Origin: Escherichia coli
GTDB lineage: Bacteria > Pseudomonadota > Gammaproteobacteria > Enterobacterales > Enterobacteriaceae
Reading direction: 5' to 3' (one strand)
Length of the DNA stretch: 64,000 nt
Assembly: GCF_001677475.2 (NCBI RefSeq)
Contig: NZ_CP015229.1
Shown here: positions 24,793-59,957 of the stretch, piece after piece
Numbering within the stretch: the stretch's first letter is position 1
Layout of the letters: each line of letters starts with the position of its first letter
Made by a program: the position numbers and the translations under genes
The notes under the pieces: generated by a model
The model's database searches: none
What the model was told of the DNA's origin: nothing
Seen by the model: the letters and a program-made list of their open reading frames with translations, nothing else

Positions 24793-25812
24793 CTACTTAC
24801 TGACCACAAGCGGCAAATCCAGTGTTGGCGTGATTTTGGTTTTACGATCGTAAATCAACACCTGATTTTCTGTTTTGTGTCCACTGAAAATTTGTTTGTC
24901 GCGACTGCTGCCTTCGTAATCTGAAATCCCTTTGGCTTTTATGTCATGGAAGTTGCACCCAAACGGAACGCCGGCTTTTTGCTCGGCTGCACGTTTAGCC
25001 TGATTCCACCAGTTGTTCAGCGTCTTGGCTATTACCTTCCCGCCTTTGGTTGTGTTGATCACATACTCGCATGTGCCGGAAGATACATTTCGGGCTAACT
25101 GGATCGCCGTACGTAATCGCGGAGACCATTCCTTGATTTGTTTAGTGCCAGTCTTGTTTTGCTCAATGTAAATCCCTTTATCCATAATATCCTGCCATTT
25201 CAGCTCGAGTACATCACCGAGCCTTGCCGCACAAAGATAGGATATCTCCATTGCAATACGTAACTGTGGAATTGCTTCCGCATATATTGCTGCATACTGT
25301 TCATCGGTGATGTAAACAGTACGGGCTTTAAGTGTGAATTTTCTGACACCTTTGCATGGATTATTTTTCACATACCCACGCTCATATCCCCATCCGTATA
25401 CACGGCTCAGACTTGCCAGTTCATGGTTTGCCTGGGTCTTGCTCTCAAGTCCTCGCTTATCCATGAAAATTCTTACCTGTTCAATTTTTACATTATCAGC
25501 AAGCACTTTTCCGAATACTGCCAACAATGCCCTTTGATGTTGCCGATAATCTTTTTGGGTTCGGGGGGCCAGTTCTGTAAATGCAGGGGAGTCCATAAAC
25601 ATGTGCCATAATTTAGCTACTGTCATTATGTTGTGGAGTTTTGCTTTTTCCAGCTCATAATTTTGCCAGACTTTAGCTACGCTGGTTTCCCGCACTCTTC
25701 CGAGCCCTATAGTTCTTGTGCTTCCTTCGGGTTTCCATACGTAACTGTAACCGTTCGATCTAACACGCGGTGGTAGTGCATTATCTTTTTTGTTTTTTCT
25801 TGGTCTTCCCAT
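24793..25812 (-). CDS. int: prophage tyrosine integrase
   Basis: 339 aa, adjacent to the att junction. The C-terminal catalytic region shows ARLGDV...HDIKAKG...GHKTENQVLIYDR (R..H..H..Y pattern). Confidence 0.88.
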   Translation of the reverse strand: MGRPRKNKKDNALPPRVRSNGYSYVWKPEGSTRTIGLGRVRETSVAKVWQNYELEKAKLHNIMTVAKLWHMFMDSPAFTELAPRTQKDYRQHQRALLAVFGKVLADNVKIEQVRIFMDKRGLESKTQANHELASLSRVYGWGYERGYVKNNPCKGVRKFTLKARTVYITDEQYAAIYAEAIPQLRIAMEISYLCAARLGDVLELKWQDIMDKGIYIEQNKTGTKQIKEWSPRLRTAIQLARNVSSGTCEYVINTTKGGKVIAKTLNNWWNQAKRAAEQKAGVPFGCNFHDIKAKGISDYEGSSRDKQIFSGHKTENQVLIYDRKTKITPTLDLPLVVSK

Positions 25813-26098: not shown

Positions 26099-28549
26099 TT
26101 AAAAATCAACCGGATTCGGGATCAGTTTTTGCCAGATTGCTGAAACGTATTTTGCCTGGTAACGAGCGTCATCAAGTGCATTATGGCGCTCACCTTCGAA
26201 TGGGATAGCTGTTCTGGCATCGAAGTCTATGGCTTTCCCCAGCTCAACGATTGTGCGTACATCGCGATCGTTGCAGTAGCGCCAAGGGCAGGGGATACCC
26301 TGTCGTTCGTATGAACGGCGTAAAATCACGTTGTCGAAGTTGGCCCCATTACCCCAGACCTGAACAAAAAATTCACCGGAGTTTTCGTCGATAAATTCCC
26401 GCAATTGCAGCAGTGCATCATCTAACGGGATTTCATCGGTCAGAATGGCAGATTGCGCCTCGCGTGATTGCTTAAGCCACCATTTTATGGTGTCACGATT
26501 AATGACTCCGCCAGCAGTTTCCAGATCGATGGTCTTACTAAATTCCGGCCCCATATCTCCGGTTTGCGGATCGAAAAATATTGCACCTATTGAGATAATC
26601 GGGGCATCGGGATTTTTTCCCATGGTTTCAAGGTCGATCATAAGATGGTCACATGACCTGCTTGTGGATGTGATATTGTGATAACCGTTCACCTTAATTA
26701 AGGGATCTGTTGCTTCGCCAGTTTCATTATCGCTGGCGTGATGCTGATTGCCTCCAGTGTTCTCCTTGTGTGGATGTTCAGCGCCTTCCATTTCCTCCGG
26801 ATCATTCTCCTGAGCTTCAACCTGATTCTCTTCATCGAATGTTTCCTGGTATGTTGCGTTTCCCATGACCGCGCCACAGTCAGGACAGTTGCCGCCGCTG
26901 CTCTGACCGCAGACGGTGCAGACTTTTTCCGGTTCCTGTTGCACTACTGGTTCGGATTGTTTCGTTTCTGGTTCGTTTTGTTGCGCATTTGGGCTGTTTT
27001 GTTCCGCTTTCTGGTCGTTCTGTGCCGTTTCTTGCTGGTTCTGGTTCACAGAATCGCGGGTTTCAATCCCCTTCACCCATTTCGGATCATTCGGGTCGCT
27101 AATCCCTGCAACAAATTCACCACGTGATGCAGCGAGCAACTGACTGGCGTCAGGCAGGCTGATATTGGCTGCCTGCATAATTTTGTTTACTTCGTCAGCG
27201 GTAACTTTTACCTGATTAACCGGATCTATCTGTGCCTGAGTATCCAGCGATTGCGTGTCCTGGCGAAGTTCAGTTGTATCCGGCTCCATTGCTTCAGTCG
27301 TTGCCTGTTCATCTGCCATTGCGTCAGACGGTTGTGATTTTTCATCATTATTTTTTTCTTCTTCTGTTTCGCGTTTAGCAGCCAGTTCGCGGTTAACTTC
27401 TTCCTGGATATCTTTTTCCGGTGTATGTCGTGCAGCAGCGAGAGTTTCTTCGGTAGGGTTCTCGTGATCAGTCTCCGTTAAGTGGGCGTTGATATACTCC
27501 TGAAGGCGTCCCGGGTAGAGATAAAGTTCAGGGTGAGCACTTCGGATAAGTGCAAAAATAGCGGCACGGGAATAATCCAGAATACCAGGGGTTGCGCGAA
27601 GTGCTGCGGACCATTCTTTGAACGGACTTTCTTTCTTCCGGACGACTTCTTTTGCGCGACGATAAACGCTGCCCGGAATTTCATAAATATTAAAATCCAT
27701 CGGAAGTGTGGCCGCTGCAATCTCCACATCCAGCGTATCGAAGGTGTGTACTAAATTCGGATTGCGATCGGTTTTGTTCCCGCCGCCAGCATTAGCACCG
27801 GAAGCCGTGCGGATGATGCGTGAAACACGATTCCCCTTCATCCACTCTTTTGTAAGCAGACCGCGATCGGTGTAGTCAGCGCCCAGGTATGCTTCGAAAA
27901 AAGCAGTCATCAGTCCCAGGTCTGAATTGCCAGGATTAGGGAAAACTTTGTCAGTGTCACGAACCAGTTTGTGGAGATCGCGAATTTCCAGCGGTTCGAG
28001 TTGCGCTGCTTTATTTGAGATGGCCAGCGCGGTAACGGCGGGAAGTTTTTCATCCTGTGCGTTATGTAATGCGCGCAGTTCGCCCCGCGAAACGTGAGTG
28101 ATCGGTTTTTCGCTGCCGTGCTGAGCAAGCCAGCGAATGGGAAGTATCTGGCCAGAAACCGGGAGTAGCATATTCTCCTCAATATCAGTCATGTCTTCGC
28201 CGTTGACGTTGGTATTGTCAGTGCTGGCTGGTTTATCCTGAACAGAGGGCGCGATAAATACCATTGTGATACCATCTTCCCCGCCTTTTTCGTATCGGTT
28301 GCAGAATTCGGTATCAAACACACCTTCCGGAGGCAGGTCATTCACAACGGGTAAATGGACGCGGACGGGTTTTTTAAAGTCGTCTTCATCATAATCGTTG
28401 TCATCCATTGCGGTAATACAACGGGAGATGGCAACAGATAATTTTTTTGCTGTGGTCCAGTAAAAACCACCTTTAATTCCCAGGCGTTTTCTGACTTTGT
28501 CATTTTTTGCTTCGCAATATAGCGCAAATTCTTCTTTTTCAGTGCTCAT
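26099..28549 (-). CDS. large early protein with C-terminal DEDDh 3'-5' exonuclease domain
   Basis: 816 aa. The C-terminus has DLETMG, NGANFD and HNALDDA motifs (Exo I/II/III). The central region is an acidic/Q-rich linker plus a CTVCG..CPDCG zinc ribbon. Confidence 0.8.
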   Translation of the reverse strand: MSTEKEEFALYCEAKNDKVRKRLGIKGGFYWTTAKKLSVAISRCITAMDDNDYDEDDFKKPVRVHLPVVNDLPPEGVFDTEFCNRYEKGGEDGITMVFIAPSVQDKPASTDNTNVNGEDMTDIEENMLLPVSGQILPIRWLAQHGSEKPITHVSRGELRALHNAQDEKLPAVTALAISNKAAQLEPLEIRDLHKLVRDTDKVFPNPGNSDLGLMTAFFEAYLGADYTDRGLLTKEWMKGNRVSRIIRTASGANAGGGNKTDRNPNLVHTFDTLDVEIAAATLPMDFNIYEIPGSVYRRAKEVVRKKESPFKEWSAALRATPGILDYSRAAIFALIRSAHPELYLYPGRLQEYINAHLTETDHENPTEETLAAARHTPEKDIQEEVNRELAAKRETEEEKNNDEKSQPSDAMADEQATTEAMEPDTTELRQDTQSLDTQAQIDPVNQVKVTADEVNKIMQAANISLPDASQLLAASRGEFVAGISDPNDPKWVKGIETRDSVNQNQQETAQNDQKAEQNSPNAQQNEPETKQSEPVVQQEPEKVCTVCGQSSGGNCPDCGAVMGNATYQETFDEENQVEAQENDPEEMEGAEHPHKENTGGNQHHASDNETGEATDPLIKVNGYHNITSTSRSCDHLMIDLETMGKNPDAPIISIGAIFFDPQTGDMGPEFSKTIDLETAGGVINRDTIKWWLKQSREAQSAILTDEIPLDDALLQLREFIDENSGEFFVQVWGNGANFDNVILRRSYERQGIPCPWRYCNDRDVRTIVELGKAIDFDARTAIPFEGERHNALDDARYQAKYVSAIWQKLIPNPVDF

Positions 28550-30462: not shown

Positions 30463-30515
30463 GTCAGGCGAGGTGGTATCCTCTGAGGGGTCTGTTACTC
30501 GAGAGGAAATTGGTT

Positions 30516-30716
30516 ATGAATACAATCAAGTTTTCTTGCCCAGAATGTGGTGGCGAAGTCTTTGACACATCCTTTAAGCCGCAGGGCTCTGACAGTTTCG
30601 CGGGAGCCATCTGCAAAAATTGTGGTCACCTTGTAACTGAAGATGAGTCCTCGCAGTTCGATGACGAAATCGTTGATAATATCTTCGGCGCACTCACCAG
30701 AGATTTCCTGAAGTAA
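30516..30716 (+). CDS. zinc-ribbon protein (CPECGG...CKNCGH) with acidic tail
   Basis: 66 aa with RBS GAGAGGA 8 nt upstream. It has two CxxC pairs and E. coli-like codon choice. It overlaps an antisense 118-aa ORF, so the strand assignment is uncertain. Confidence 0.45.
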   Translation: MNTIKFSCPECGGEVFDTSFKPQGSDSFAGAICKNCGHLVTEDESSQFDDEIVDNIFGALTRDFLK

Positions 30717-31033
30717 AAGCGCATGCCGTTTAGTTACCGCTCTGATCATTCTTACTTGTCCGGTAATGGCGCTGACATCAGTATAAAGCGCCATTGCTGC
30801 TTCTTTGCCGATCCCAGGATGCCTTCCATTCTGATGTTTGACTTCGCCCACTGAGAAATCCTCTGTTTCCCCTTAACGCCGGGGTAGCGGAACAAAAACC
30901 TGCTGCATAGTTAAAGTTGAACCCTGCCGTCATGTTCTTACGCCTCGGGCTGGCTACTTAACCCCTGACCACTGCCTGGTAACTCGAAGTATTGCCCTGC
31001 GTTTTGTGGGGCGGGGTGGGTTAGTAAAAATAG

Positions 31034-31061
31034 TTTATACAAAAATAAACTAAACAGTCAA
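31034..31061 (-). promoter_or_regulatory. PL-like early-left promoter with palindromic operator
   Basis: The minus strand reads TTGACT-16 nt-TATAAA. The palindrome AGTTTAT-N6-ATAAACT overlaps it. It is nearly identical in layout to the PR-like promoter at 32469. Confidence 0.6.
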
Positions 31062-31116
31062 TATGCAACTTAACTCTTTGGCGAGGATAACCCCTGTTGA
31101 GAGGGGCTTCGGGGGA

Positions 31117-31404
31117 TTAAGGTGTTACAGGGAACTGTCGGCGGGCGTGAACTACGCTAACAATTTCAATGCCTGAAATTGTCACGCGGTATAGAATTAT
31201 GTAATTGGGGTGAGCAACAATTTCACGCAAACCCGGAACTCTGTCGCTTGGCGGGTATAAATACGGATGCTCAGATAATGGCAGGACGCAAGTCCTTAAG
31301 CGTTTCCACAAACGTTCTGCCGCATCTATATCAAAACGAGCAATATAGCTAGTTATATCATCCAAGTCGGCATCTGCGCTTTCGAGCCATAAAACCGGTA
31401 ACAT
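31117..31404 (-). CDS. parE: ParE-family toxin (ParE2-like)
   Basis: 95 aa, MLPVLWLESADADLDDITSYIARFDIDAAERLW..., recognised as the ParE toxin of the O157 PaaR-PaaA-ParE system. Confidence 0.85.
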   Translation of the reverse strand: MLPVLWLESADADLDDITSYIARFDIDAAERLWKRLRTCVLPLSEHPYLYPPSDRVPGLREIVAHPNYIILYRVTISGIEIVSVVHARRQFPVTP

Positions 31405-31596
31405 TTACTGCTTGCTCCGTTCCTTGCGCATGTTAGCAAAGCGTTCAGCCATTCTGCGTTCAACTTCGTCATGTGGGATGGCTGGACGTGGATCAGCAAG
31501 GCTTGCGGCCACTTTTGCACGCAGCCATTCGTTATAACTATTTTCTTGCTCGATGGTTTCAAATTCAGAAACCATTGGTGAAAGGGCTGTGTTCAT
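31405..31596 (-). CDS. paaA: PaaA-like antitoxin
   Basis: 63 aa from MNTALSPMVSEFETIEQENSYNEWLRAKV. It abuts the parE start. Confidence 0.8.
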   Translation of the reverse strand: MNTALSPMVSEFETIEQENSYNEWLRAKVAASLADPRPAIPHDEVERRMAERFANMRKERSKQ

Positions 31597-31631
31597 GGCG
31601 AACCTCGTTTTGTAAGTGCTGGTAATTCTGC

Positions 31632-32027
31632 CTAGGTAACTTTTTGTTGTGCTGCTAGCCACCTTGCAACTATACGATCCATTGTCTCTTTTTTTTCCTT
31701 CATATCTTTAAGTATTTGCTGTTGATCTTCCTCTGGAAATGCCTCAAATGTTTGAAGTAGCTCCTTTTGCTTAGGAGATATTTTTAATATATCCTGTGTT
31801 TTGTCTTCTTTTTCTTCATTTAATGGTAAGAAAAACCAATGTTGGGGAAAACCCGTTACTTCAGATAGTTTATCTAGATTAGCTGCTGTAGGGCTTGATA
31901 TACCACAAACCCACCTTTGGACGGATTGTTGAGCAATACCAATTCTGCGCGCAAGCTCTGCTTGACTCCAGCCTTTTTCTAATAGAAGCATCTTAATTCT
32001 AAGAGCACTAATTTCGAGTACGCCCAT
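31632..32027 (-). CDS. paaR: PaaR-like XRE-HTH regulator
   Basis: 131 aa with the HTH LLEKGWSQAELARRIGIAQQSVQRW. It is the first gene of the three-gene module. Confidence 0.75.
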   Translation of the reverse strand: MGVLEISALRIKMLLLEKGWSQAELARRIGIAQQSVQRWVCGISSPTAANLDKLSEVTGFPQHWFFLPLNEEKEDKTQDILKISPKQKELLQTFEAFPEEDQQQILKDMKEKKETMDRIVARWLAAQQKVT

Positions 32028-32057
32028 CTGATATCTCTTGTTCCAGTATGTATCCCG

Positions 32058-32429
32058 TCAGGCTCGGCGACCTTGTCGCGCCAACCAACGTGCAACAAGA
32101 TCTTCCATTGCCTCTTTTTTATTTCTTAGTTCTTTTATGATCTCCTGCTGTTCATTATCAGGAAAAGCACTAAATATTTGTAGTAATTCCAATTGGTTAG
32201 GGGTTAATGCCATAGATCTTGATGACGAAGATTCTGTTGTGTCTTCAGGTTCCATATCAAGATAACCCCCAGGCATCCCATATGTTTGCTCAATACGTCT
32301 AGCTGCCTTTTCGCCAAACGTAGATTTACCGCTCATTAACTGAGATAAGTAACTTTTCTCTTTAGGCGGCAAAGTCCTGTCTTTGAACCACTCTTTGAGG
32401 CGTAAACGCCGAATCTCTTTTGTTTCCAT
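32058..32429 (-). CDS. cI-like prophage repressor (no S24 peptidase domain), paralogue of PaaR C-terminus
   Basis: 123 aa, divergent from the cro-like gene across a promoter/operator region. The C-terminal segment LTPNQLELLQIFSAFPDNEQQEIIKELRNKKEAMEDLVARWLA aligns with PaaR ISPKQKELLQTFEAFPEEDQQQILKDMKEKKETMDRIVARWLA. Confidence 0.7.
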   Translation of the reverse strand: METKEIRRLRLKEWFKDRTLPPKEKSYLSQLMSGKSTFGEKAARRIEQTYGMPGGYLDMEPEDTTESSSSRSMALTPNQLELLQIFSAFPDNEQQEIIKELRNKKEAMEDLVARWLARQGRRA

Positions 32430-32468
32430 ACATTCATTATCTTTAGTAATTGCAAAACAAGCAAATAC

Positions 32469-32496
32469 TTGACTGGTTTATTTAGTTGCGTATAAA
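32469..32496 (+). promoter_or_regulatory. PR-like promoter/operator
   Basis: TTGACT-16 nt-TATAAA with the GTTTAT...ATAAAC inverted repeat, 36 nt upstream of the cro-like ATG. Confidence 0.6.
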
Positions 32497-32531
32497 CTTT
32501 CGCTTGTTCTAAATGTGCTGAGATAAAAATT

Positions 32532-32819
32532 ATGACGCTAAAGGAATTCATCAAATCATTAAAAATTGGAGAAGCAAAAAAATTTGCGACCAACCTTGGT
32601 GTGTCTCCATCCTTCTTGTCCCAAATGGCATCTGGAACTTCACCTGTGTCTCCTGTTCGTGCGTTGATGATAGAAGCAGAAACTGGAGGACACGTTACAA
32701 GACGCGAATTGAGACCTAATGACTGGGAGCTTATATGGCCCGAATACACTGGAATCACGTCCCCTTCACGTCACAAATATGAACTTAACACCAAAAAGGC
32801 TGATGGGGTTGACTCATGA
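32532..32819 (+). CDS. Cro/YdaS-like HTH regulator
   Basis: 95 aa. LGVSPSFLSQMASG...GGHVTRRELRP is the YdaS-type pattern. It is the first gene of the rightward operon. Confidence 0.7.
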   Translation: MTLKEFIKSLKIGEAKKFATNLGVSPSFLSQMASGTSPVSPVRALMIEAETGGHVTRRELRPNDWELIWPEYTGITSPSRHKYELNTKKADGVDS

Positions 32820-33241
32820 TAATCAAGCATGAACACATCCGCATGGCGATGAATGCATGGGCGCATCCGGACGGTGAAAAAGTTCCGGCAGCTGAAATAA
32901 CCCGGGCTTATTTTGAGCTGGGTATGACGTTCCCGGAGCTATATGACGACAGGCATCCGGAAGCGCTGGCTCGTAATACCCAGAAAATTTTCCGCTGGCT
33001 GGATAAAGACACCCCTGATGCGGTTAAAAAAATTCAGGCGTTGTTACCAGCTATCGAAAAAGCAATGCCGCCTCTGCTGGTGGCCCGAATGCGCAGCCAC
33101 AGTTCAGCCTATTTTCGGGAACTGGTGGAGACGCGGGAACGACTGGTGAGAGACGCTGATGATTTTGTCGCAGTGGCGATCGCTGGTTTCAATCAGATGA
33201 ATCGTGGTGGTCCGGCGGGAAATGCCGTGGTGATGCACTAA
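32816..33241 (+). CDS. YdaT-like (CII-position) protein
   Basis: 141 aa, overlapping the stop of the cro-like gene. Size and position match Rac YdaT. Confidence 0.6.
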   Translation: MIIKHEHIRMAMNAWAHPDGEKVPAAEITRAYFELGMTFPELYDDRHPEALARNTQKIFRWLDKDTPDAVKKIQALLPAIEKAMPPLLVARMRSHSSAYFRELVETRERLVRDADDFVAVAIAGFNQMNRGGPAGNAVVMH

Positions 33242-39880: not shown

Positions 39881-40261
39881 ATGACTGAACGCATAGAATT
39901 TGTTTTGCCTTACCCGCCGACGGTAAACACCTACTGGAGACGTCATGGCAATACGTATTTCATCTCGGAAGTCGGAAAGCGTTATCGCCGTGATGTGGCT
40001 CTAATTGTTCGCCAGCAGCGACTGAAATTAAACCTGTCCGGAAGGCTGGCGATAAAGATTATTGCAGAGCCACCGGATAAGCGCCGTCGTGACCTGGACA
40101 ATATCCTGAAAGCACCGCTGGATGCGTTGACGCATGCGGGACTGCTTATCGACGACGAGCAGTTTGATGAAATCAATATTGTGCGCGGTCAGCTTGTTCC
40201 TGGTGGTCGGCTGGGCGTGAAGATTGACGAAATAATGCATGACGGGCAGGTCCAAAAATGA
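39881..40261 (+). CDS. rusA: Holliday junction resolvase RusA
   Basis: 126 aa with PPTVNTYW and DKRRRDLDNILKAPLDALTHAGLLIDD motifs. Confidence 0.85.
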   Translation: MTERIEFVLPYPPTVNTYWRRHGNTYFISEVGKRYRRDVALIVRQQRLKLNLSGRLAIKIIAEPPDKRRRDLDNILKAPLDALTHAGLLIDDEQFDEINIVRGQLVPGGRLGVKIDEIMHDGQVQK

Positions 40262-41079
40262 AACTGGAAGATTTACCGAAATACTATTCCCCAAAATCGC
40301 CAGGCCTGACTGATGCATCCGCCTCGACGTCAAAAGATGCGCTGAGTATCACTGATGTGATGGCTGCGCAGGGTATGACACAGAACCGGGCTGAGATGGG
40401 ATTTTCTGCGTTCCTGGGGAAAATGGGCATTAGTATGAATGACAGGGCGCGGGCAACAGAATTACTGGCAGATTATGCATTAAGTCAGTGCGGTCGTGTG
40501 GCTGCGTTAAGAAAACTTCCGGCAGAGATAAAACCGGCAGTGATGCGCATTATGGCTTCGTACGCTTTTGAGGATTATGCCCGCAGCGCAGCGAGTAAAA
40601 AGCAATGCCCTTGTTGCCGAGGGGAAAAATTTATTGAAAGCGAGGTTTTTACAAACAAGGTTCAGTATCCGGATGGTAAGCCGCCAGTATGGGCAAAGTG
40701 TACAAAAGGCGTGTATCCGTCTTACTGGGAAGAATGGAAAAAAATCCGGGAGGTGGTGAAGGTTTCCTGTCCTGAATGTAAAGGGAAGGGAGAGATTTCG
40801 ACCGCCTGTAAAGACTGCCGTGGGCGTGGTGTAGCCATTCATCGTGAAGAGTCAGAAAAACGGGGTATGCCTGTTATCAGGGACTGCCAGCGTTGTGGCG
40901 GTCGTGGCTATGAAAGACAGCCGTCGACGGAGGCATTTAATGCCATATGTGAGGTGACAAATCAAATAACACGCGCGTCATGGGAAAAAACGGTTAAGCA
41001 ATTCTATGACACTCTGGTGGTTCGGTTTGACATTGAAGAGGCATGGGCGGAGCGGCAGTTAAAAAAGGTAACCAGATAA
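40258..41079 (+). CDS. late antiterminator Q (DnaJ-type zinc-finger class)
   Basis: 273 aa with CPECKGKGE..CKDCRGRG..CQRCGGRG. It lies upstream of a PR'/tR'-like region. Confidence 0.75.
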   Translation: MKLEDLPKYYSPKSPGLTDASASTSKDALSITDVMAAQGMTQNRAEMGFSAFLGKMGISMNDRARATELLADYALSQCGRVAALRKLPAEIKPAVMRIMASYAFEDYARSAASKKQCPCCRGEKFIESEVFTNKVQYPDGKPPVWAKCTKGVYPSYWEEWKKIREVVKVSCPECKGKGEISTACKDCRGRGVAIHREESEKRGMPVIRDCQRCGGRGYERQPSTEAFNAICEVTNQITRASWEKTVKQFYDTLVVRFDIEEAWAERQLKKVTR

Positions 41080-45206: not shown

Positions 45207-45689
45207 ATGTCAGGACCTCCGAAAACCCCGCCACGCCTGCATTTGATACGAGGCAACCCCTCAAAGCGCCCCGTTAAAGACCACAAAAAAACCGCTAAAA
45301 AGGATGAAAAAGGTCTTCCTAAAATTCCGCAGCATTTAGGGGCTCAGGGGAAGTACTGGTTCAGGCGAATGGCGGAAGAGCTGAATGCGGAAGGGATCAT
45401 TTCTCAGCTTGATGCGCGTGCACTCGAGTTGCTGGTGGAAGCCTACACCGAATATCGGCATCACTGCGAAACACTCGATGTTGAGGGGTATACCTACCGC
45501 ACGGAAACGCAGAGCGGTGATGTACTGATTAAGGCGCACCCCGCGGCGGCAATGAAAGCGGATGCCTGGAAGCGGATCCGGGCAATGCTTGCAGAGTTTG
45601 GTATGTCACCGGCAAGCCGGGCTAAAGTAAATATCGCCGGACCGGATGATGTTGATCCGCTGGCGGAGCTTTTAAAAGCGAGAGACTGA
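45207..45689 (+). CDS. terS: terminase small subunit (P27-type)
   Basis: 160 aa, upstream of and overlapping the terL start. It is homologous in its C-terminal half to the satellite TerS. Confidence 0.8.
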   Translation: MSGPPKTPPRLHLIRGNPSKRPVKDHKKTAKKDEKGLPKIPQHLGAQGKYWFRRMAEELNAEGIISQLDARALELLVEAYTEYRHHCETLDVEGYTYRTETQSGDVLIKAHPAAAMKADAWKRIRAMLAEFGMSPASRAKVNIAGPDDVDPLAELLKARD

Positions 45690-46716
45690 TGGCAAAAGTG
45701 GCTGACGGGATCCGCTACGCCGAACGTGTTGTTGCAGGAGAAATTGTTGCTGGCGAATTTGTCCGCCTGGCCTGCCAGCGTTTTCTTGATGATCTGAAGT
45801 ACGGCGAAGAGCGGGGGATTTATTTCAGTGAACCCCGTGCGCAGCACATCCTGAATTTCTACAAATTTGTGCCTCATGTAAAAGGGGCGCTGGCAGGCCA
45901 GCCCATTGAGTTGATGGACTGGCATGTATTTATTCTCATTAATATTTTTGGTTTTGTCATTCCGCTGGTCAATGAAGAGACCGGGGAAGTTGTCATGCGC
46001 AGCGATGGCAGTGGACGTCCGGTGATGGTGCGCCGGTTCCGGACGGCGTACAACGAAGTCGCTCGTAAAAACGCAAAATCAACTCTGTCATCGGGTATCG
46101 GCCTGTATATGACGGGGGCAGATGGTGAAGGCGGAGCTGAGGTGTATTCAGCCGCAACCACGCGTGACCAGGCCAGAATCGTGTTTGAAGACGCCAAAAA
46201 TATGGTCAGAAAAGCCCGGTCGACACTCGGGCGGTTGTTTGATTTCAACAAGCTGGCGATTTACCAGGAGCAGAGCGCATCAAAATTTGAACCGCTTTCT
46301 TCGGATGCAAACAACCTAGACGGTCTGAACATCCACTGCGCCATTATTGATGAGCTGCATGCACATAAAACCCGCGACGTGTGGGACGTTCTGGAAACGG
46401 CAACCGGTGCCCGTCTGCAGTCCCTGTTATTTGGTATCACCACGGCGGGCTTTAACAAGGAAGGGATTTGTTACGAGCAACGCGATTACGCCATCAAGGT
46501 ATTGCGAGGCTATAACAGCGACGTGGAGGGCGCGGTAAAAGACGACTCCTACTTTGCGATTATTTACACGCTCGATGAGGGAGATGATCCGTTTGATGAA
46601 ACGGTCTGGCAGAAAGCGAATCCGGGCCTGGGCATCTGTAAACGCTGGGATGATCTGCGTCGTCTGGCGAAAAAAGCGAAGGAGCAGGTCTCGGCGCGGG
46701 TGAATTTTTTCACGAA
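45689..46716 (+). pseudogene. terL: prophage terminase large subunit, 5' (ATPase) fragment, interrupted by satellite
   Basis: The fragment aligns with the satellite TerL up to ...RVNFFTK. The frame then reads 55 unrelated codons of island DNA. Confidence 0.88.
46710..46716. repeat. satellite attL core TCACGAA
   Basis: The same 7-mer occurs at 62119-62125, with 12/14 identity when extended (AATTTTTTCACGAA vs AATATTCTCACGAA). Confidence 0.75.
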
Positions 46717-46845
46717 GAAAGTAACATCACGCCGTAACAACAGTGCAGTCTGTCCTGATTTTTTTAGTAACCAAATGAAAGAAAAAGATTTTTTCTTGTT
46801 CGTCGTTTTTGTTTTTTCTGGATGGTTCTGGCTGTTTTCATCATT

Positions 46846-46868
46846 TGTGTATTGCACTGTGTATTGCA
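46846..46868 (+). repeat. tandem TGTGTATTGCA x2 (putative integrase arm-type sites, left end)
   Basis: Copies lie at 46846-46856 and 46858-46868. A similar pair, GTGTATTGC x2, lies at 62023-62043 with the same 12-nt register. Confidence 0.6.
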
Positions 46869-46887
46869 AAAACGGGTTATAAATCAC

Positions 46888-48111
46888 ATGGCGCTAAACA
46901 AACTGAGCGATAAAAAACTTCGTTCCCTGCTTGGACGCAGGAGTGAGAGACAGGAAACCATCGCTGATGGTAACGGGCTTTCGGTACGGGTCAGTAAATA
47001 CGGATGTGTTAGTTTTGTTTTCTTTTACAGACTGGCGGGAAGGGGAACCGCGCCCATCTGGCTGACACTTGGAAAATATCCTGATCTGAGTCTCAAATCA
47101 GCGAGAGAGATGCGCGATCAGTGTCGAACCTGGCTTGCGGAGGGCAGAGATCCACGGATTCAGATAAAAATTGAACGGGAAGCCACCTTGCAACCTGTTA
47201 CCGTTCGTGAGGCACTTGAATACTGGCTTGATAATTATGCAATGGATAAGCGTAGGGGAGCAGAACATATCAGGCAGTGCTTTGGTAAACATATTTATCC
47301 GGTGATTGGTCATGTACCACTTAGTGATTGCTCTATATCTATGTGGATTAAGTGTTTTGACAAAATAAAAAAAGTAGCACCTGTACAGGCCGGAGCTTTG
47401 TTGCGTATATCAAAACAGGCGCTTAAATTTTGTAGGGTAAGAAAATACGCGATTAGTCATGAAATTGATGATCTTGAGGTCTGTGATGTGGGAAAAAAGT
47501 CTGCGCGAAGAAGCAGGGTTTTAACAGATGATGAAATCAGAGATTTATGGCGAAGTATTAATACTGATTATGACAATCACGAATTATCATATGAAAACCG
47601 AATTATTTTACGTTTCCTGGTAGTTTTTGGTTGCCGACTGTCAGAAGTATTACTGTCGTCCTGGGGAGAGTGGGATTTTGATAAGAAATTATGGCGCGTT
47701 CCCGCTGAACATAGCAAAAATGGCAGGGAAATAATCAGACCGATTCCTGATGGCATGTTTAACTGGTTAGTTACGTTAAAAAAAATAACAGGTAACAAAG
47801 AAAATGTGATTGGGTTTGATATGCGTCAGTGTACGGCAAGCGTAACTATCGGTAAGACATGGAAAAGGATGAAACACTCGGAGAAATGGACGGCGCATGA
47901 TATGCGAAGAGTGTTTGCCACAAAACTAAGTGATCATGGTTTTGAACATAATGTGGTTGAACAGTTGCTTGGGCACACATTAGGCGGTGTTGCCGGGGTT
48001 TATAACAGAAGCCAGTATATGGACAGAAAAAAAGAAGCTATGAACTGGTGGTACGACTATCTGAATAAGCAAATTAGTGGTGACGGTAATGATTCAAATA
48101 GTTACGCGTGA
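46888..48111 (+). CDS. int: P4-type tyrosine integrase of the satellite
   Basis: 407 aa from MALNKLSDKKLRSLLG. The C-terminal catalytic region reads GCRLSEVL...HDMRRVFATKL...LGHTLGGVAGVYNR. Confidence 0.88.
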   Translation: MALNKLSDKKLRSLLGRRSERQETIADGNGLSVRVSKYGCVSFVFFYRLAGRGTAPIWLTLGKYPDLSLKSAREMRDQCRTWLAEGRDPRIQIKIEREATLQPVTVREALEYWLDNYAMDKRRGAEHIRQCFGKHIYPVIGHVPLSDCSISMWIKCFDKIKKVAPVQAGALLRISKQALKFCRVRKYAISHEIDDLEVCDVGKKSARRSRVLTDDEIRDLWRSINTDYDNHELSYENRIILRFLVVFGCRLSEVLLSSWGEWDFDKKLWRVPAEHSKNGREIIRPIPDGMFNWLVTLKKITGNKENVIGFDMRQCTASVTIGKTWKRMKHSEKWTAHDMRRVFATKLSDHGFEHNVVEQLLGHTLGGVAGVYNRSQYMDRKKEAMNWWYDYLNKQISGDGNDSNSYA

Positions 48112-48690: not shown

Positions 48691-48709
48691 GTATGTGAGG
48701 TAGAAAGTG

Positions 48710-49303
48710 ATGAATAAAAATATTGCCGTGACGGGCAAGGGTGACGCACGTCATGTGAAAAAATTCTGTGATATTCGTGATCTGGTCGTTCTGCGCTTTG
48801 ATAGTGTGAACGTTCGCGTGGTGTATCTGAACGGCGATCCGTGGTTTGTTGGCGCTGATGTGTGTGCGGCGCTGGAAATTAGCAACGTTACCGATGCTGT
48901 TTCAGTTCTGGATAACGATGAGGTAATGACCCTAGCTTTAACCGAGGGTCATTCAGGTAAGCGTGGTGGTGCCAGAAGTTGGAATGTTGTATCAGAATCA
49001 GGTTTTTACAAGTTGATCGCCAGAAGTCGCAAAGCTGTTAATCCTGGCACGTTCGCCCATCGTTTCAGTAATTGGGTATTCAGAAATGTGATACCGGGTA
49101 TCAGAAAAACGGGGGCTTATGGTATCCCGTGGGGCGCATTACAGGATTTTTCCCGCCGCAAAGAGCAATATCAGGTAAGTGCCAGCGAGAAGGGGAGGGA
49201 GCTACAGGCATGTAAGCGCAAAAAGCGTGAGCTAGAGGAAGAAGAAAAAAGGCTGATACGTGAATATCAGCCTGAGTTTTACTTTGGTGAGCGTATTCAG
49301 TAA
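48710..49303 (+). CDS. BRO-N domain (antirepressor-like) protein
   Basis: 197 aa with VRVVYLNGDPWFVGADVCAALEISN...SESGFYKLIARSRKA...FSNWVFRNVIPGIRKTGAY. Confidence 0.75.
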   Translation: MNKNIAVTGKGDARHVKKFCDIRDLVVLRFDSVNVRVVYLNGDPWFVGADVCAALEISNVTDAVSVLDNDEVMTLALTEGHSGKRGGARSWNVVSESGFYKLIARSRKAVNPGTFAHRFSNWVFRNVIPGIRKTGAYGIPWGALQDFSRRKEQYQVSASEKGRELQACKRKKRELEEEEKRLIREYQPEFYFGERIQ

Positions 49304-49492: not shown

Positions 49493-49588
49493 CCTTGCGA
49501 ACAATTAACCTACTGCGCAAAAAAATGAATCTGTGCAGGGGGATTATATCAACCGTGTGACGAAGCGCCACAATTGCCGGATAACAGG

Positions 49589-49617
49589 CAAAGAAAAGGC
49601 CACCCGCTACGGTGGCC
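49589..49617 (-). terminator. minus-strand terminator/attenuator
   Basis: The minus strand reads GGCCACC-GTAGCG-GGTGGCC followed by TTTTCTTTG. Confidence 0.6.
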
Positions 49618-55608: not shown

Positions 55609-56754
55609 ATGAAGAAATTAATCGAACTCCGCCAGCAAAAAACCGCCCTGAAAAACCAGATGCGATCCCTGCTGGAAAAAGCCGACAGTGAAAACCGCAG
55701 CCTGAACGATGACGAAGGCAAACAGTTTGATGAACTGCGTGCAAAAGCCGATTCCCTCGACACAGAAATCTCCCGTCTTGAAGCTGTTGCGGATGAAGAA
55801 CGTAACCAGCCAGGTGTTTGCGTCGAAGAGAAAATTACCAAAGACGAACTGCGCTCTTACATTCTGACCGGGGAAACCCGCAACCTGTCCGGCAGTGTTC
55901 CGGCTGATGGTGGTTATACGGTTATCCCGGAACTGAACAGAGAAATTATGCGTCAGCTTTCTGATGAATCGGTGATGCGTAAAATCTGTACTGTTAAAAC
56001 CATTCACAGCAATGAATTTAAGCAACTGGTTTCTGCCGGGGGCGCGGTCGTTGAACACGGTGAAGAAGGCACTACACGTAACCAGACGGCAACCCCAAAA
56101 CTGAATGAAGTCAGTATCCGCCTGTATCCGATCTACGCTTACCCGAAAACCACTCAGGAAATTATCGATTTTTCCGAAGTCGATATTATGGGCTGGTTAT
56201 CTTCTGAAATTGGCGACACTTTCGTTGATACCGAAGAAACGGATCTGGTTTCTGGTGATGGCGAGAAAAAAGCTAAAGGTTTCCTGGCTTTTCCGCGCAC
56301 TGAGGATAACGACAAAACCCGTCCTTTCGGTACGCTCCAGACGAAAAAAGTTACTGGCAGTCTTAGCGCCGACATGCTGATTGACCTGAAATTTACGCTG
56401 CGCAATAAGTACCGCAAAAAAGCTGTATGGGTGATGAACTCAAATACAGCCGCCTCCGCACAAAAACTGAAAAATGCCACTGGTGATTACATCTGGCGCG
56501 ATCGTTTACAGGCTGGTGATCCTGATTCTCTGCTGGGGCTTCCGGTTGAATATCTGGAATTTATGCCGGACGGTGTGATTGCAGTAGGTGACTTTAAGCG
56601 CGGTTATTTCATCGTTGACCATGAAACCGGTACGCGTACCCGTCCGGATTTCAGCGAACCTGGATTCATTAACATCTATACCCAGAAATATCTGGGCGGT
56701 GGTGTGGTGGATTCGAACGCCATCAAGATTCTGGAAATTCAGGCTGGCAAGTAA
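55609..56754 (+). CDS. HK97-family major capsid protein (with N-terminal delta/scaffold domain)
   Basis: 381 aa with an N-terminal coiled coil and then a capsid fold. The gene order capsid-protease-portal supports the call. Confidence 0.85.
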   Translation: MKKLIELRQQKTALKNQMRSLLEKADSENRSLNDDEGKQFDELRAKADSLDTEISRLEAVADEERNQPGVCVEEKITKDELRSYILTGETRNLSGSVPADGGYTVIPELNREIMRQLSDESVMRKICTVKTIHSNEFKQLVSAGGAVVEHGEEGTTRNQTATPKLNEVSIRLYPIYAYPKTTQEIIDFSEVDIMGWLSSEIGDTFVDTEETDLVSGDGEKKAKGFLAFPRTEDNDKTRPFGTLQTKKVTGSLSADMLIDLKFTLRNKYRKKAVWVMNSNTAASAQKLKNATGDYIWRDRLQAGDPDSLLGLPVEYLEFMPDGVIAVGDFKRGYFIVDHETGTRTRPDFSEPGFINIYTQKYLGGGVVDSNAIKILEIQAGK

Positions 56755-59312: not shown

Positions 59313-59600
59313 ACATGAGCAAAACAGGCTGATACGTGGACTGATAAGGCAACGTGACTTATGGAAGACACAGGAGACAGGGCACAAAGCCAACAGGACA
59401 GGGCGCACAGAACGCACCACAGCGAAGCGATTAACCGACCGTGACCGCGAGGTCATGGAATGTTTTCGCAATCGCTGGTGAGGCTGTCAGAGGGGGTGGG
59501 GGAGGTTTTCAGGACGAAACCGTCCCTGCCGGACACCGACCGCCTCCTCAAATTTTTGTGCACGGTAATTTTTTTGAAAATAATTGGGCGAAAAAAGAAC

Positions 59601-59957
59601 ATGGCAAGACCACCAAAAGCCCCCGCTTACCTGGATGAAATCGCGGTCAGGCAGTGGAAGGAAAAATCGCGCCAGCTTTCCGTGCGGGAAGACCTTACCC
59701 CCGCCGACTGGAGCAATCTGGAACTGTATTGTGTTAACTACTCCATATACCGCAAAGCCGTCGAAGACCTTGCGACGCGCGGGTTCAGCATTGTTAACAG
59801 TCAGGGCAGCGAGAGCAGAAACCCCGCCCTGAGCGCAAAGGCTGACGCGGAAAGAATAATGATCAAAATGGCTTCTTTGCTGGGTTTTGACCCGGTAAGC
59901 CGCCGCAGAAATCCACCGGAAACAGAGGAAGAGGACGAGCTTGACCGCCTGGCATGA
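59601..59957 (+). CDS. terS: terminase small subunit (P27-type)
   Basis: 118 aa from MARPPKAPAYLDEIAVRQW. Confidence 0.8.
   Translation: MARPPKAPAYLDEIAVRQWKEKSRQLSVREDLTPADWSNLELYCVNYSIYRKAVEDLATRGFSIVNSQGSESRNPALSAKADAERIMIKMASLLGFDPVSRRRNPPETEEEDELDRLA

What the first reader, a model, noticed from the sequence alone, without database searches (positions are those of the whole stretch)
31117..32429. Three-gene PaaR-PaaA-ParE toxin-antitoxin module wedged into the prophage immunity region next to a paralogous repressor
**Seen in sequence.**
- The ParE toxin (31117-31404), the 63-aa PaaA-like antitoxin (31405-31596) and an XRE-HTH regulator (31632-32027) form one leftward operon.
- The next gene (32058-32429) is the phage cI-position repressor.
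- Its C-terminal 45 residues are clearly homologous to the PaaR C-terminus (LTPNQLELLQIFSAFPDNEQQEII... versus ISPKQKELLQTFEAFPEEDQQQIL...).
- The whole TA operon sits between the repressor gene and the PL-like promoter at 31034-31061.

**Established knowledge.** PaaR-PaaA-ParE is a described three-component TA family of E. coli O157:H7 prophages.

**Inference.**
- The shared oligomerisation-type C-terminal domain could allow hetero-oligomers between the TA regulator and the phage repressor. That would couple TA expression to the lysis-lysogeny state.
- The location means the toxin module is expressed in the lysogen. It could serve as an addiction or anti-phage module.
Basis: partly seen in the sequence, partly recalled or inferred. 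Interest (0 to 1): 0.6.

Follow-up and report, generated by a model that had tools for sequence, protein, structure and literature searches.

The report
Prophage switch with two tandem repressors
This is the already described E. coli prophage control region that carries a toxin-antitoxin pair, but here it holds a second, foreign-type repressor gene between the resident repressor and the antitoxin, a rare arrangement that selection has kept and whose purpose is untested.

Summary
All four genes and the C-terminal homology are real (BLASTP E=1e-18). The labels are swapped. The cI-position gene (32058-32429) is the PaaR2 orthologue: 73-74% identical to O157:H7 PaaR2, N-domain 88% to PDB 8C3K/7NKV. 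PaaA and ParE are 95% and 90% PaaA2/ParE2. With divergent ydaS/ydaT, PR/OR, PL/OL and a YdaT site, this is the published CP-933P immunity region. The toxin-antitoxin pair is native there, not wedged in.

What is wedged in is the XRE gene (31632-32027). A 460-bp cassette replaces the canonical 19-bp paaR2-paaA junction. This XRE protein belongs to the class that acts as sole cI-position repressor upstream of paaA-parE in sibling prophages, probably including O157:H7 PaaR1.

The tandem form occurs in 16 of 5,426 complete E. coli genomes and nine IMG/VR contigs. The extra gene is under purifying selection (dN/dS 0.13-0.23; DNA-binding domain 0.05-0.14). I found no operators of its class anywhere in the window.

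Best reading: a captured second-specificity repressor, co-expressed in the lysogen and acting in trans, for example as immunity to a second phage type. Hetero-oligomers through the shared two-helix C-domain remain possible, but that domain is common to the whole repressor family. New variant of a known kind; moderate interest.

The parts
31117..31404 (-). parE toxin gene (95 aa), ParE2 type
   Evidence: PF05016, E=1.2e-16. PDB 5CW7 ParE2, E=2.7e-55. 90% identical to ParE of an O157:H7 locus. dN/dS 0.05-0.06.
31405..31596 (-). paaA antitoxin gene (63 aa), PaaA2 type; its stop abuts the parE start
   Evidence: PF21217, E=1.1e-20. NF050103, E=1.7e-24. PDB 3ZBE PaaA2, E=8.9e-35. 95% identical to O157:H7 PaaA2.
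31598..32057 (.). 460-bp inserted cassette: the XRE gene plus its two short junctions. It replaces the canonical 19-bp paaR2-paaA junction.
   Evidence: Homology to the X-less sibling L002 stops at 31597 and resumes at 32058. The L002 junction GTTTCCTCCGGTTTTATGAC is almost identical to that of CP-933P (L006, GTTTCCTCCGGTTTTATAAC).
31632..32027 (-). Extra XRE-family repressor gene 'X' (131 aa): five-helix HTH domain, linker, and a two-helix C-domain
   Evidence: HTH_3, E=6.7e-13. DicA-like NF007257, E=3e-15. phrog_5736. 61% identical to the sole cI-position repressor of L003, 57% to that of L007 and 56% to that of L028 (O157:H7). AF2 mean pLDDT 78, helices 3-18, 22-29, 33-40, 48-58, 62-66, 85-95 and 99-129. 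dN/dS 0.13-0.23 overall, N-domain 0.05-0.14.
32028..32057 (-). 30-nt junction between the paaR2 stop and the X start, with an AAGAG Shine-Dalgarno-like motif. No room for a promoter or operator.
   Evidence: The junction varies in length among sibling loci, 19 to 34 nt.
32058..32429 (-). PaaR2 orthologue 'R' (123 aa), the cI-position repressor of this prophage
   Evidence: Residues 1-67 match PDB 7NKV/8C3K/8C3L at E=3e-31. Foldseek names these entries 'PaaR2 N-terminal domain', 88% identity, TM 0.90-0.94. The PaaR2 N-terminus MQKKE was determined experimentally (PMC8630535). 73-74% identical to O157:H7 PaaR2 over the full length. dN/dS 0.06-0.11.
32430..32531 (.). OR region. PR is TTGACT-18-TAAACT at 32469-32498(+). 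A PRM-like TTGCTT-17-GATAAT lies on the minus strand (32464-32436), 6 nt before the R start codon, which fits a leaderless mRNA. Repeats of the CP-933P type (TTTAGTAA, AACAAGCRAA) are present.
   Evidence: for PR. 96% identical to the OR of the X-less sibling L002, and it shares the left half with the CP-933P OR. PRM was read by eye, by analogy with the mapped leaderless PRM933P (PMC8630535); this is inference.
31020..31075 (-). OL/PL. PL is TTGACT-18-TAAACT (31061-31032, minus strand) with the GTTTAT-N6-ATAAAC palindrome.
   Evidence: inverted repeat I1 with PR. Same core as L002 and L005. CP-933P has the same arrangement, where PaaR2 and YdaS repress PL933P (PMC8630535).
32532..32819 (+). 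ydaS-type Cro analogue (95 aa)
   Evidence: PF15943, E=1e-9. phrog_35. 98% identical to L002 and 65% to CP-933P YdaS.
32809..32826 (+). YdaT operator-like inverted repeat TTGACTCATGATAATCAA at the ydaS/ydaT junction
   Evidence: The only match in the window to TTGATTN6AATCAA with at most 1 mismatch. This is the YdaT OM site defined in PMC9986795.
32816..33241 (+). ydaT-type CII analogue (141 aa)
   Evidence: PF06254, E=1.1e-10. phrog_163 'CII-like transcriptional activator', E=2.3e-45.

Best explanation
**Anatomy (shown).**
- The region is the lysis-lysogeny switch of a CP-933P/Sp12-type lambdoid prophage.
- A PaaR2-type repressor (R, 32058-32429) sits at the cI position. It is probably translated from a leaderless PRM transcript.
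- It faces a divergent ydaS (Cro analogue) and ydaT (CII analogue) across OR.
- A second operator set with an identical promoter (PL/OL) lies about 1.4 kb to the left.
- paaA-parE occupy the place that rexA-rexB occupy in lambda. They are co-transcribed with the repressor, so the toxin-antitoxin pair is made in the lysogen and acts as an addiction module. This function is inferred from the O157:H7 orthologue.

**The one departure from the published system.**
- A 460-bp cassette lies between the R stop and the paaA start.
- It encodes a second complete repressor (X) of the XRE class.
- In sibling prophages that class is the only repressor, with its own Cro and its own operators.
- The cassette, with its paaA-proximal junction, came from such a sibling by recombination in the conserved paaA-parE segment plus one illegitimate join.

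**Function (inferred).**
- X is expressed from PRM together with R.
- It has no operators of its own class in this prophage, yet its DNA-binding domain is under purifying selection.
- It therefore most likely works in trans, as a second immunity specificity. It would repress incoming or co-resident phages that carry X-type operators. The lysogen would then be immune to two immunity groups.
For: **Identity of the parts**
- Searches identify the genes.
- The PaaR2 N-terminus MQKKE and the CP-933P regulatory scheme come from PMC8630535. The YdaT operator comes from PMC9986795.
- OR and OL are of the R type. OR is 96% identical to the OR of the X-less sibling L002. PR and PL share hexamers. The YdaT site is present.

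**Insertion**
- Homology to L002 breaks exactly at 31597 and 32058.
- The L002 junction equals the CP-933P junction, so the X-less state is ancestral.

**X belongs to a class of sole cI-position repressors**
- L003, L004, L007, L008 and L028 have XRE-paaA-parE with a divergent Cro, and each has its own palindromic operators in OR and OL.
- Klebsiella and Pectobacterium relatives also sit next to a divergent Cro.
- Residues 22-61 of X are 35/40 identical to the L003 repressor, by my own count on the alignment. The recognition helix reads QQSVQ(R/K)W in both.

**Selection**
- dN/dS is 0.13-0.23 for X and 0.05-0.14 for its N-domain, with dS up to 0.44 between tandem loci.
- In the loci fetched, the X reading frame runs through the conserved core to a variable C-terminal tail (131-153 aa) in L001, L005 and L009-L012. 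It gives full-length tblastn matches in eight of nine IMG/VR contigs and is frameshifted in L026.
- The tandem form is present in 16 complete E. coli genomes.

**No cis targets**
- L003-type operator patterns are at or below chance in the whole 64 kb, with none in OR, OL or the cassette.
- OR and OL carry no X-specific additions compared with L002.
- The arms flanking the cassette differ among tandem loci. A fixed cis target outside the immunity block is therefore unlikely.
Against: - No binding data exist for X. Its operator is predicted only from a 61%-identical relative.
- No prophage with an X-lineage protein (>70% identity) as sole repressor was found among 5.8 billion proteins. The phage that X would exclude is therefore hypothetical, or only L003-like.
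- Co-transcription from PRM is inferred from 30- and 35-nt gaps and the lack of a predicted terminator. It was not measured.
- One promoter-like match lies inside R (32260-32231, minus strand, 9/12). The total number of such matches is at chance level.
- X could instead act through protein-protein contacts with R.
- In one genome (L011) R is frameshifted while X is intact. That fits any model in which X has a function of its own.
Confidence: 0.5

Rival explanations
1. Hetero-oligomer model. R and X assemble through their homologous two-helix C-domains into mixed oligomers; PaaR2 is an octamer in solution. X would then tune OR-OL looping, bistability and expression of the toxin-antitoxin pair. 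It might also tie the switch to a second DNA specificity, as SinR is tuned by SlrR and SinI.
For: - The C-domains are 56% identical over 45 residues.
- Both are predicted as a short helix followed by a long helix: X 85-95 and 99-129, R 77-87 and 91-121.
- The best Foldseek hit of X is SinR in the SinR/SinI complex (1B0N, E=1.8e-4). From general knowledge, SinR hetero-oligomerises through just such a C-terminal helical hook.
- PaaR2 octamerises (PMC8630535).
- The two proteins would be made from one transcript, at the same place and time.
- The C-domain of X in tandem loci is slightly closer to that of R (56-60% in four of five tandem loci) than in sole-repressor relatives (49-51%). The recombinant L005 is the exception at 47%.
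Against: - The shared C-domain is common to all repressors of this prophage group and to DicA. O157:H7 carries both classes in separate prophages. The homology is therefore not specific to this locus.
- The 56-60% versus 49-51% difference amounts to 2-4 residues.
- This model does not explain why the DNA-binding domain of X is its most constrained part (dN/dS 0.05-0.14) while its C-domain is the least constrained (0.16-0.37).
Confidence: 0.2
2. Cassette-regulator model. X-paaA-parE arrived as a ready-made three-gene PaaR1-type toxin-antitoxin unit. X is its dedicated regulator, acting at an internal promoter, and has no role in phage immunity.
For: - XRE-paaA-parE exists as a unit in siblings.
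- The X-paaA junction of the window aligns with that of L003, within a continuous 77.6%-identical blastn alignment from 30866 to 31964. In L005 it matches the L003 junction over the 29 nt upstream of the paaA start.
- There is a promoter-like site inside R, 32260-32231 on the minus strand.
- PaaR is needed for a correct antitoxin:toxin ratio in O157:H7. I recall this from Hallez 2010, which I could not read here. The review PMC4803016 states only that full repression of the operon needs PaaR.
Against: - In those siblings the XRE protein works at the OR/OL of the phage switch, not at a promoter private to the toxin-antitoxin pair. That OR was not brought along.
- The 30-nt junction upstream of X has no operator. 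It varies from 19 to 34 nt.
- No palindrome of the X class lies in or near the cassette.
- The window's paaA-parE are closer to the X-less sibling (88% nucleotide identity) than to L003 (83-87%).
- The promoter-like hit count is at chance level.
Confidence: 0.15
3. Recombination scar. X is a passenger left by an immunity-region exchange and has no function.
For: - Immunity regions of these prophages are mosaic. The X of L005 switches from window-like to L003-like at about residue 103.
- The C-terminal tail of X is unstable: 131, 132 or 153 aa.
- The arrangement is rare, 16 of 5,426 genomes.
Against: - dN/dS is 0.13-0.23, and 0.05-0.14 in the HTH domain, over dS of 0.2-0.44.
- The reading frame is open through the conserved core in the seven tandem E. 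coli loci examined (window, L001, L005, L009-L012) and gives full-length matches in eight of nine IMG/VR contigs. Only L026 is frameshifted.
Confidence: 0.05

Closest known systems
paaR2-paaA2-parE2 / ydaS-ydaT immunity region of cryptic prophage CP-933P (Sp12) of E. coli O157:H7 (Hallez 2010; Jurenas 2021, PMC8630535; PMC9986795)
   Same: - Gene order and orientation match.
- R is 73-74% identical to PaaR2, with the N-domain 88% identical to the solved structure.
- PaaA is 95% and ParE 90% identical.
- YdaS- and YdaT-type Cro and CII analogues are present.
- PR and PL have identical hexamers.
- A YdaT operator lies at the ydaS/ydaT junction.
- The -10 geometry fits a leaderless repressor mRNA.
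- The repressor lacks an S24 peptidase domain.
   Different: - A whole extra repressor gene lies between paaR2 and paaA, giving four genes instead of three.
- OR-OL spacing is about 440 bp longer.
- The operator sequences and Cro belong to a sub-type: the R gene is 72% identical at nucleotide level and YdaS 65% at protein level.
XRE-type repressor-paaA-parE loci of sibling lambdoid prophages (L003, L004, L007, L008; L028 in O157:H7, most likely the paaR1-paaA1-parE1 system of Hallez 2010)
   Same: - X is 56-61% identical to these repressors, with the same HTH_3 domain and the same C-domain.
- X sits directly upstream of paaA-parE.
- Its junction to paaA is of this type.
   Different: - In the siblings the XRE protein is the only repressor. 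It sits at the cI position, faces its own Cro, and has its own palindromic operators in OR and OL.
- In the window it is internal to the operon and has none of these.
- Equating this class with PaaR1 is my inference. O157:H7 is reported to have two paralogous systems (PMC4803016), and I found exactly these two classes in one O157:H7 genome. I did not read it in Hallez 2010.
Lambda cI-rexA-rexB operon between PRM/OR and PL/OL
   Same: - Accessory genes expressed in the lysogen ride on the repressor transcript.
- They sit between two operator sets that the repressor can bridge.
   Different: - The proteins are unrelated.
- The payload here is a toxin-antitoxin pair plus a second repressor.
- The repressor has no RecA-cleavable domain.
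SinR / SlrR / SinI of Bacillus subtilis
   Same: - X is predicted as an XRE HTH domain plus a C-terminal helical hook. SinR (1B0N) is its best structural match.
- Paralogues that share the hook form hetero-complexes and a bistable switch (general knowledge).
   Different: - There is no sequence relationship beyond the HTH domain.
- Hetero-complexes are not shown for R and X.
- The context is a phage switch.
DicA (Qin prophage) and the Gifsy-1/Gifsy-2 repressors
   Same: - These are short cI-position repressors without a peptidase domain.
- X matches the DicA model NF007257 over residues 17-129, and R matches it in the C-domain.
- X is 34% identical to the Gifsy repressors.
- From general knowledge (Lemire et al. 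2011), Gifsy repressors are inactivated by trans-acting antirepressors that cross-talk between prophages.
   Different: - Each of those prophages has one repressor.
- No antirepressor link has been shown here.

Membership tests
PaaR2-PaaA2-ParE2 three-component TA / CP-933P-type immunity region | ParE-family toxin of the ParE2 type | tested here: met
   PF05016, E=1.2e-16. 5CW7 ParE2, E=2.7e-55. 90% identical to the O157:H7 protein.
PaaR2-PaaA2-ParE2 three-component TA / CP-933P-type immunity region | Small PaaA antitoxin without a DNA-binding domain, immediately upstream of parE | tested here: met
   PF21217, E=1.1e-20. 3ZBE, E=8.9e-35. 63 aa, with its stop codon abutting the parE ATG.
PaaR2-PaaA2-ParE2 three-component TA / CP-933P-type immunity region | PaaR2 regulator encoded in the same operon | tested here: met
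   The 123-aa gene at 32058-32429 matches PDB 7NKV/8C3K/8C3L 'PaaR2 N-terminal domain' at E=3e-31, 88% identity, TM 0.90-0.94. It is 73-74% identical to the O157:H7 protein over the full length.
PaaR2-PaaA2-ParE2 three-component TA / CP-933P-type immunity region | Three genes only, with paaR2 directly followed by paaA (junction of about 20 nt) | tested here: not met
   A 460-bp cassette with a 131-aa XRE gene separates them. The canonical 19-20-nt junction is seen in L002 and L006.
PaaR2-PaaA2-ParE2 three-component TA / CP-933P-type immunity region | Divergent ydaS/ydaT (Cro and CII analogues), OR and OL with the same promoter hexamers, and a YdaT operator | tested here: met
   PF15943 and PF06254. 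PR and PL are both TTGACT-18-TAAACT. TTGACTCATGATAATCAA lies at 32809-32826.
PaaR2-PaaA2-ParE2 three-component TA / CP-933P-type immunity region | Toxicity of ParE, neutralisation by PaaA, post-segregational killing, repression of PR and PL by PaaR2, bistability | not testable with these tools
   Known only for the O157:H7 orthologue (PMC8630535; PMC4803016).
XRE-type (DicA-like, probable PaaR1-class) cI-position repressors of lambdoid prophages | HTH_3 N-domain plus the conserved ~45-aa C-domain (..PxQxELLQxFxAFPEE..KKxxM..RWLAA) | tested here: met
   HTH_3, E=6.7e-13. NF007257, E=3e-15. Alignment A1 shows invariant L90, F94, A96, F97, P98, R122 and W123. 56-61% identical to sole repressors.
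XRE-type (DicA-like, probable PaaR1-class) cI-position repressors of lambdoid prophages | Sits at the cI position, divergent from a cognate Cro, with cognate palindromic operators in OR and OL | tested here: not met
   X is internal to the operon, 30 nt after the R stop. The OR, OL and Cro of the window are of the PaaR2 type. No L003-type operators occur above chance.
SinR/SlrR/SinI-type hetero-oligomerising regulators | XRE domain plus a C-terminal helical hook | tested here: inconclusive
   The AF2 model has pLDDT 78 and two C-terminal helices. The best Foldseek hit is 1B0N_A, E=1.8e-4, TM 0.44/0.55. This is a prediction only.
SinR/SlrR/SinI-type hetero-oligomerising regulators | Physical hetero-complex between paralogues | not testable with these tools
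   No multimer prediction or interaction assay was available.

The most novel reading that the evidence does not exclude
A temperate phage stacks two heterotypic cI-class repressors in one PRM operon. The resident PaaR2-type repressor runs its own switch. A captured XRE-type repressor has no operators at home. It gives the lysogen immunity to a second immunity group, or forms mixed oligomers with the resident repressor through the shared C-domain so that one switch senses another. The toxin-antitoxin pair downstream would then also stabilise this double-immunity block against loss by recombination.
Probability: 0.35. Interest if true: 0.6.

Novelty: new variant of a known kind. Interest (0 to 1): 0.38.

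Why it matters
- The toxin-antitoxin part adds nothing new. It is a close relative of a system that has been dissected genetically, biochemically and structurally.
- The extra repressor is the point of interest.
- If it confers immunity to a second phage type, it would be a simple route to broader superinfection immunity that I found no report of in the literature searched. A prophage would capture a rival's repressor and express it from its own maintenance promoter.
- If it forms mixed oligomers, it would give a natural test case for cross-talk among the many DicA/PaaR-type repressors that coexist in E. coli genomes. O157:H7 carries both classes.
- It also corrects an annotation trap. RefSeq calls the PaaR2 orthologue 'hypothetical protein' and the extra gene 'helix-turn-helix domain-containing protein'.

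Tried and rejected
1. **Operators for X.** I derived the operator of the closest sole-repressor relative (L003: CACTTWWAAAGTTA and ACAC-N7-GTGT) and searched the whole window. Matches were at or below chance, with none in OR, OL or the cassette. This relies on a relative that is only 61% identical.
2. **Internal promoter or terminator.** There is one 9/12 promoter-like site inside R and one weak terminator-like hairpin inside X. Both counts are at chance level.
3. **Repeats within 30900-32900.** Apart from the PR/PL inverted repeat, only short two-copy matches came up. A TAGTTTAT copy inside X falls in the conserved DKL codons, so I judged it a coding constraint.
4. **GTTTAGTAA (CP-933P repeat consensus) with at most 1 mismatch.** There were 14 hits against 10 expected. 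The hit in the X-paaA junction is not conserved in siblings.
5. **Convergence of the X C-domain on the R C-domain.** The difference is only 2-4 residues, which is not convincing.
6. **Stop-codon read-through fusion of R and X.** They are in frame in the window, but the junction length differs in L005 and L012. I rejected this as chance.
7. **PADLOC.** Only generic HTH hits for X, and nothing for the other genes.
8. **Deposited phage genomes.** None carries the tandem form. Phage Evi has an R-type repressor at 73% identity. The closest X-type hits are 34-53% identical.
9. **Pseudo-multimer fold of the natural R-stop-X reading frame.** I considered this and dropped it. The tool returns no contact or PAE data, and no homodimer control could be submitted.
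10. **Literature search for tandem or second repressors in lambdoid phages.** Nothing relevant was found. No paper on the PaaR2 structure was found in the library.
Full report
**1. What is in the sequence**

Four leftward ORFs lie at the stated coordinates.
- parE, 31117-31404, 95 aa.
- paaA, 31405-31596, 63 aa. Its TAA stop abuts the parE ATG.
- An XRE-HTH gene, here called X, 31632-32027, 131 aa.
- A 123-aa gene, here called R, 32058-32429.

To the right, on the other strand, lie a YdaS-type gene (32532-32819) and a YdaT-type gene (32816-33241). An O-like replication gene follows.

Family scans support these assignments.
- ParE_toxin, E=1.2e-16, and PaaA2, E=1.1e-20.
- HTH_3, E=6.7e-13, for X.
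- No Pfam hit for R.
- X matches the DicA model NF007257 over almost its whole length. R matches it only in the C-terminal part.

- BLASTP gives 36% identity over 77 residues, E=1e-18.
- Identity is 56% over 45 C-terminal residues.
- Family profiles align over the full length, probability 98.7%. R has an 8-residue deletion where X has helix 2.

**2. Which gene is PaaR2**

- R residues 1-67 match PDB 7NKV, 8C3K and 8C3L at E=3e-31.
- Foldseek lists those entries as 'PaaR2 N-terminal domain': 88% identity, TM 0.90-0.94 against my model of R.
- The chains begin MQKKE. That is the experimentally determined N-terminus of PaaR2 (PMC8630535).
- Over the full length R is 73-74% identical to the protein at the paaR2 position of an O157:H7 genome, locus L006.
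- PaaA is 95% and ParE 90% identical to the O157:H7 proteins.

The cI-position 'phage repressor' of the finding is therefore PaaR2.

**3. The region is the published CP-933P immunity switch**

Jurenas et al. showed the following (PMC8630535).
- PaaR2 is the cI analogue.
- YdaS and YdaT are the Cro and CII analogues.
- paaA2-parE2 ride on the repressor operon.
- A PL promoter with the same -35 and -10 elements as PR lies on the far side of the operon.
- The pair is addictive.

The YdaT paper states that paaA2-parE2 take the place of rexA-rexB (PMC9986795).

The window reproduces each element.
- PR is TTGACT-18-TAAACT at 32469-32498(+).
- PL has identical hexamers at 31061-31032(-).
- The two form a 30-nt inverted repeat.
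- The only window match to the YdaT operator TTGATTN6AATCAA sits at the ydaS/ydaT junction, 32809-32826.
- On the minus strand, TTGCTT-17-GATAAT ends 6 nt before the R start codon. That is the geometry expected for a leaderless mRNA as mapped for paaR2. I read this by eye, so it is inference.

The toxin-antitoxin pair is therefore not wedged into the immunity region. It is native to this type of region.

**4. What is actually wedged in**

A sibling prophage with the same sub-type of R, OR and Cro but without X exists (L002, strain STEC17-183).
- The window is homologous to it up to 31597 and again from 32058.
- So 460 bp, 31598-32057, replace 19 bp.
- The L002 junction (GTTTCCTCCGGTTTTATGAC) is almost the same as that of CP-933P (GTTTCCTCCGGTTTTATAAC).
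- The X-less state is therefore ancestral, and the tandem state is derived by insertion.

**5. Where X comes from**

Other E. coli prophages have XRE-paaA-parE. In them an X-type protein of about 132 aa sits at the cI position, faces its own Cro, and has its own palindromic operators in both OR and OL.
- These are L003, L004, L007 and L008.
- The L003 operators are CACTTWWAAAGTTA and ACAC-N7-GTGT.
- The L007 operator is ACAATWAAAAACTGT.
- The L008 operator is ACAC-A5-7-GTGT.

More distant relatives in Klebsiella and Pectobacterium also sit beside a divergent Cro.

X is 56-61% identical to these proteins.
- In residues 22-61 it is 35/40 identical to L003, by my count on the alignment.
- The recognition helix is the same: QQSVQR/KW.

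O157:H7 genomes carry both classes in different prophages. Strain Z1626 has the PaaR2 type and the XRE type at separate sites. [quoted passage not shown] The XRE class is therefore most likely the PaaR1 class. This is my inference; I could not read Hallez 2010.

The X-paaA junction of the window is of the XRE-locus type. The simplest origin is one crossover in the conserved paaA-parE segment plus one illegitimate join just after the R stop codon.

Recombination continues. The X of L005 is window-like in its N-terminal part and L003-like from about residue 103.

**6. Frequency and selection**

- The four-gene form is present in 16 of 5,426 complete E. coli genomes.
- It is present in nine IMG/VR contigs, one of them 100% identical to the window.
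- It is absent from deposited phage genomes.
- PaaR2-type genes occur in 611 genomes. Of these, 18 are of the window's sub-type: 16 with X and 2 without.
- Every X-lineage protein above 87% identity is in the tandem context. The next relatives are at 69% or less.

Pairwise Nei-Gojobori estimates among tandem loci:

| Gene or domain | dN/dS |
|---|---|
| R | 0.06-0.11 |
| X, whole | 0.13-0.23 |
| X, HTH domain | 0.05-0.14 |
| X, C-domain | 0.16-0.37 |
| PaaA | 0.02-0.06 |
| ParE | 0.05-0.06 |

dS reaches 0.44 for X. X is thus a maintained, functional gene, and its DNA-binding domain is its most constrained part.

Its extreme C-terminus is unstable. It is 131 aa in the window, 132 aa in L005, and 153 aa overlapping paaA in L009-L012.

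**7. Where could X act**

- The OR of the window is 96% identical to that of the X-less sibling.
- The OL core is the same as well, and neither region has extra sites.
- The 30-nt R-X junction varies from 19 to 34 nt among siblings.
- L003-type operator patterns are at or below chance in all 64 kb.
- The arms flanking the immunity block differ among tandem loci: Rha and kil in some, dicB and ydfC in others. A fixed cis target elsewhere in the prophage is therefore unlikely.

Two possibilities remain.
- X acts in trans on other phages, as a second immunity specificity.
- X acts through the resident repressor.

I favour the first. The constraint is strongest on the DNA-binding domain, and the recognition helix matches a known immunity class. 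It remains an inference.

**8. The hetero-oligomer idea**

AF2 models were built with family alignments (X pLDDT 78; R pLDDT 81).
- Both proteins have a disordered or weak linker, then a short helix and a long helix: X 85-95 and 99-129, R 77-87 and 91-121.
- The best PDB match of X is SinR in the SinR/SinI complex. SinR hetero-oligomerises through a C-terminal helical hook (general knowledge).
- PaaR2 is an octamer (PMC8630535).

The idea is therefore structurally reasonable. However, the C-domain is shared at 47-62% identity by all PaaR2-type and XRE-type repressors examined, and by DicA. It does not single out this locus, and I could not run a multimer prediction.

**9. Prophage context**

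- Integrase, 24793-25812.
- RecE-like exonuclease, 26099-28549.
- O-like gene.
- Ren-like gene.
- Q gene, 40258-41079.
- tRNA-Met and tRNA-Arg at 42.4-42.6 kb.
- terS.

The prophage terL gene is split into 45689-46882 and 62130-62855 by a roughly 15-kb element. That element has its own integrase, antirepressor, primase-helicase, head, protease, portal, terS and terL. The prophage is probably defective for packaging unless the element excises.

**10. Verdict**

The toxin-antitoxin and immunity architecture is already known. The tandem PaaR2-type plus XRE-type repressor arrangement is a new variant of a known kind. It is rare but selected, and its function is plausible but untested.

Noticed in passing
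window 45689-46882 and 62130-62855, with the insert at about 46.8-62.1 kb: The prophage's large terminase gene is split. The N-terminal part matches phrog_9 positions 169-448 and the C-terminal part matches positions 449-673. The insert is about 15 kb and carries its own integrase (46822-48111), antirepressor (48707-49303), repressor-like genes (49533-50964), primase-helicase (51927-53336), major head (55609-56754), protease, portal, terS (59460-59957) and terL (59941-61602). It looks like a capsid-forming satellite or small phage integrated inside a prophage packaging gene.
   Followed up: partly
L011 (NZ_CP148435) 3635-3832; L026 (IMG/VR 2529292908_000010): In one tandem locus (L011) the PaaR2-type gene is frameshifted (74 aa by my ORF reading; annotated as 198 bp) while X stays intact. 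In L026 both genes appear frameshifted.
   Followed up: no
window 31632-31650, and the same region of L005 and L009-L012: The C-terminal tail of X is polymorphic. It is 131 aa in the window and 132 aa with an L003-like tail in L005. In L009-L012 a 1-nt indel gives a 153-aa form that overlaps the paaA start by 32 nt.
   Followed up: partly
window 31632-32429 (-): R and X are in the same reading frame, separated by one TGA and 10 codons. The junction is 34 nt in L005 and 19 nt in L012, so this is probably chance.
   Followed up: yes
proteins P0110-P0141: The unusual PaaR2 N-domain is an XRE-like fold that lacks helix 2. In Yersinia and other genera it also occurs fused to an S24 LexA-type peptidase domain (proteins of 208-213 aa). 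It is thus a swappable cI DNA-binding module.
   Followed up: no
window 30510-30716 (+): An ECs_2282-family CxxC zinc-binding protein (NF047912, E=1.1e-15) sits just left of PL. CP-933P has one in the same place (L006 2378-2578).
   Followed up: no
L006 and L028 (O157:H7 genomes): O157:H7 carries a PaaR2-type and an XRE-type regulator-paaA-parE locus in two different lambdoid prophages. Their toxin-antitoxin proteins are only 62-67% identical. RefSeq annotates PaaR2 orthologues as 'hypothetical protein'.
   Followed up: partly
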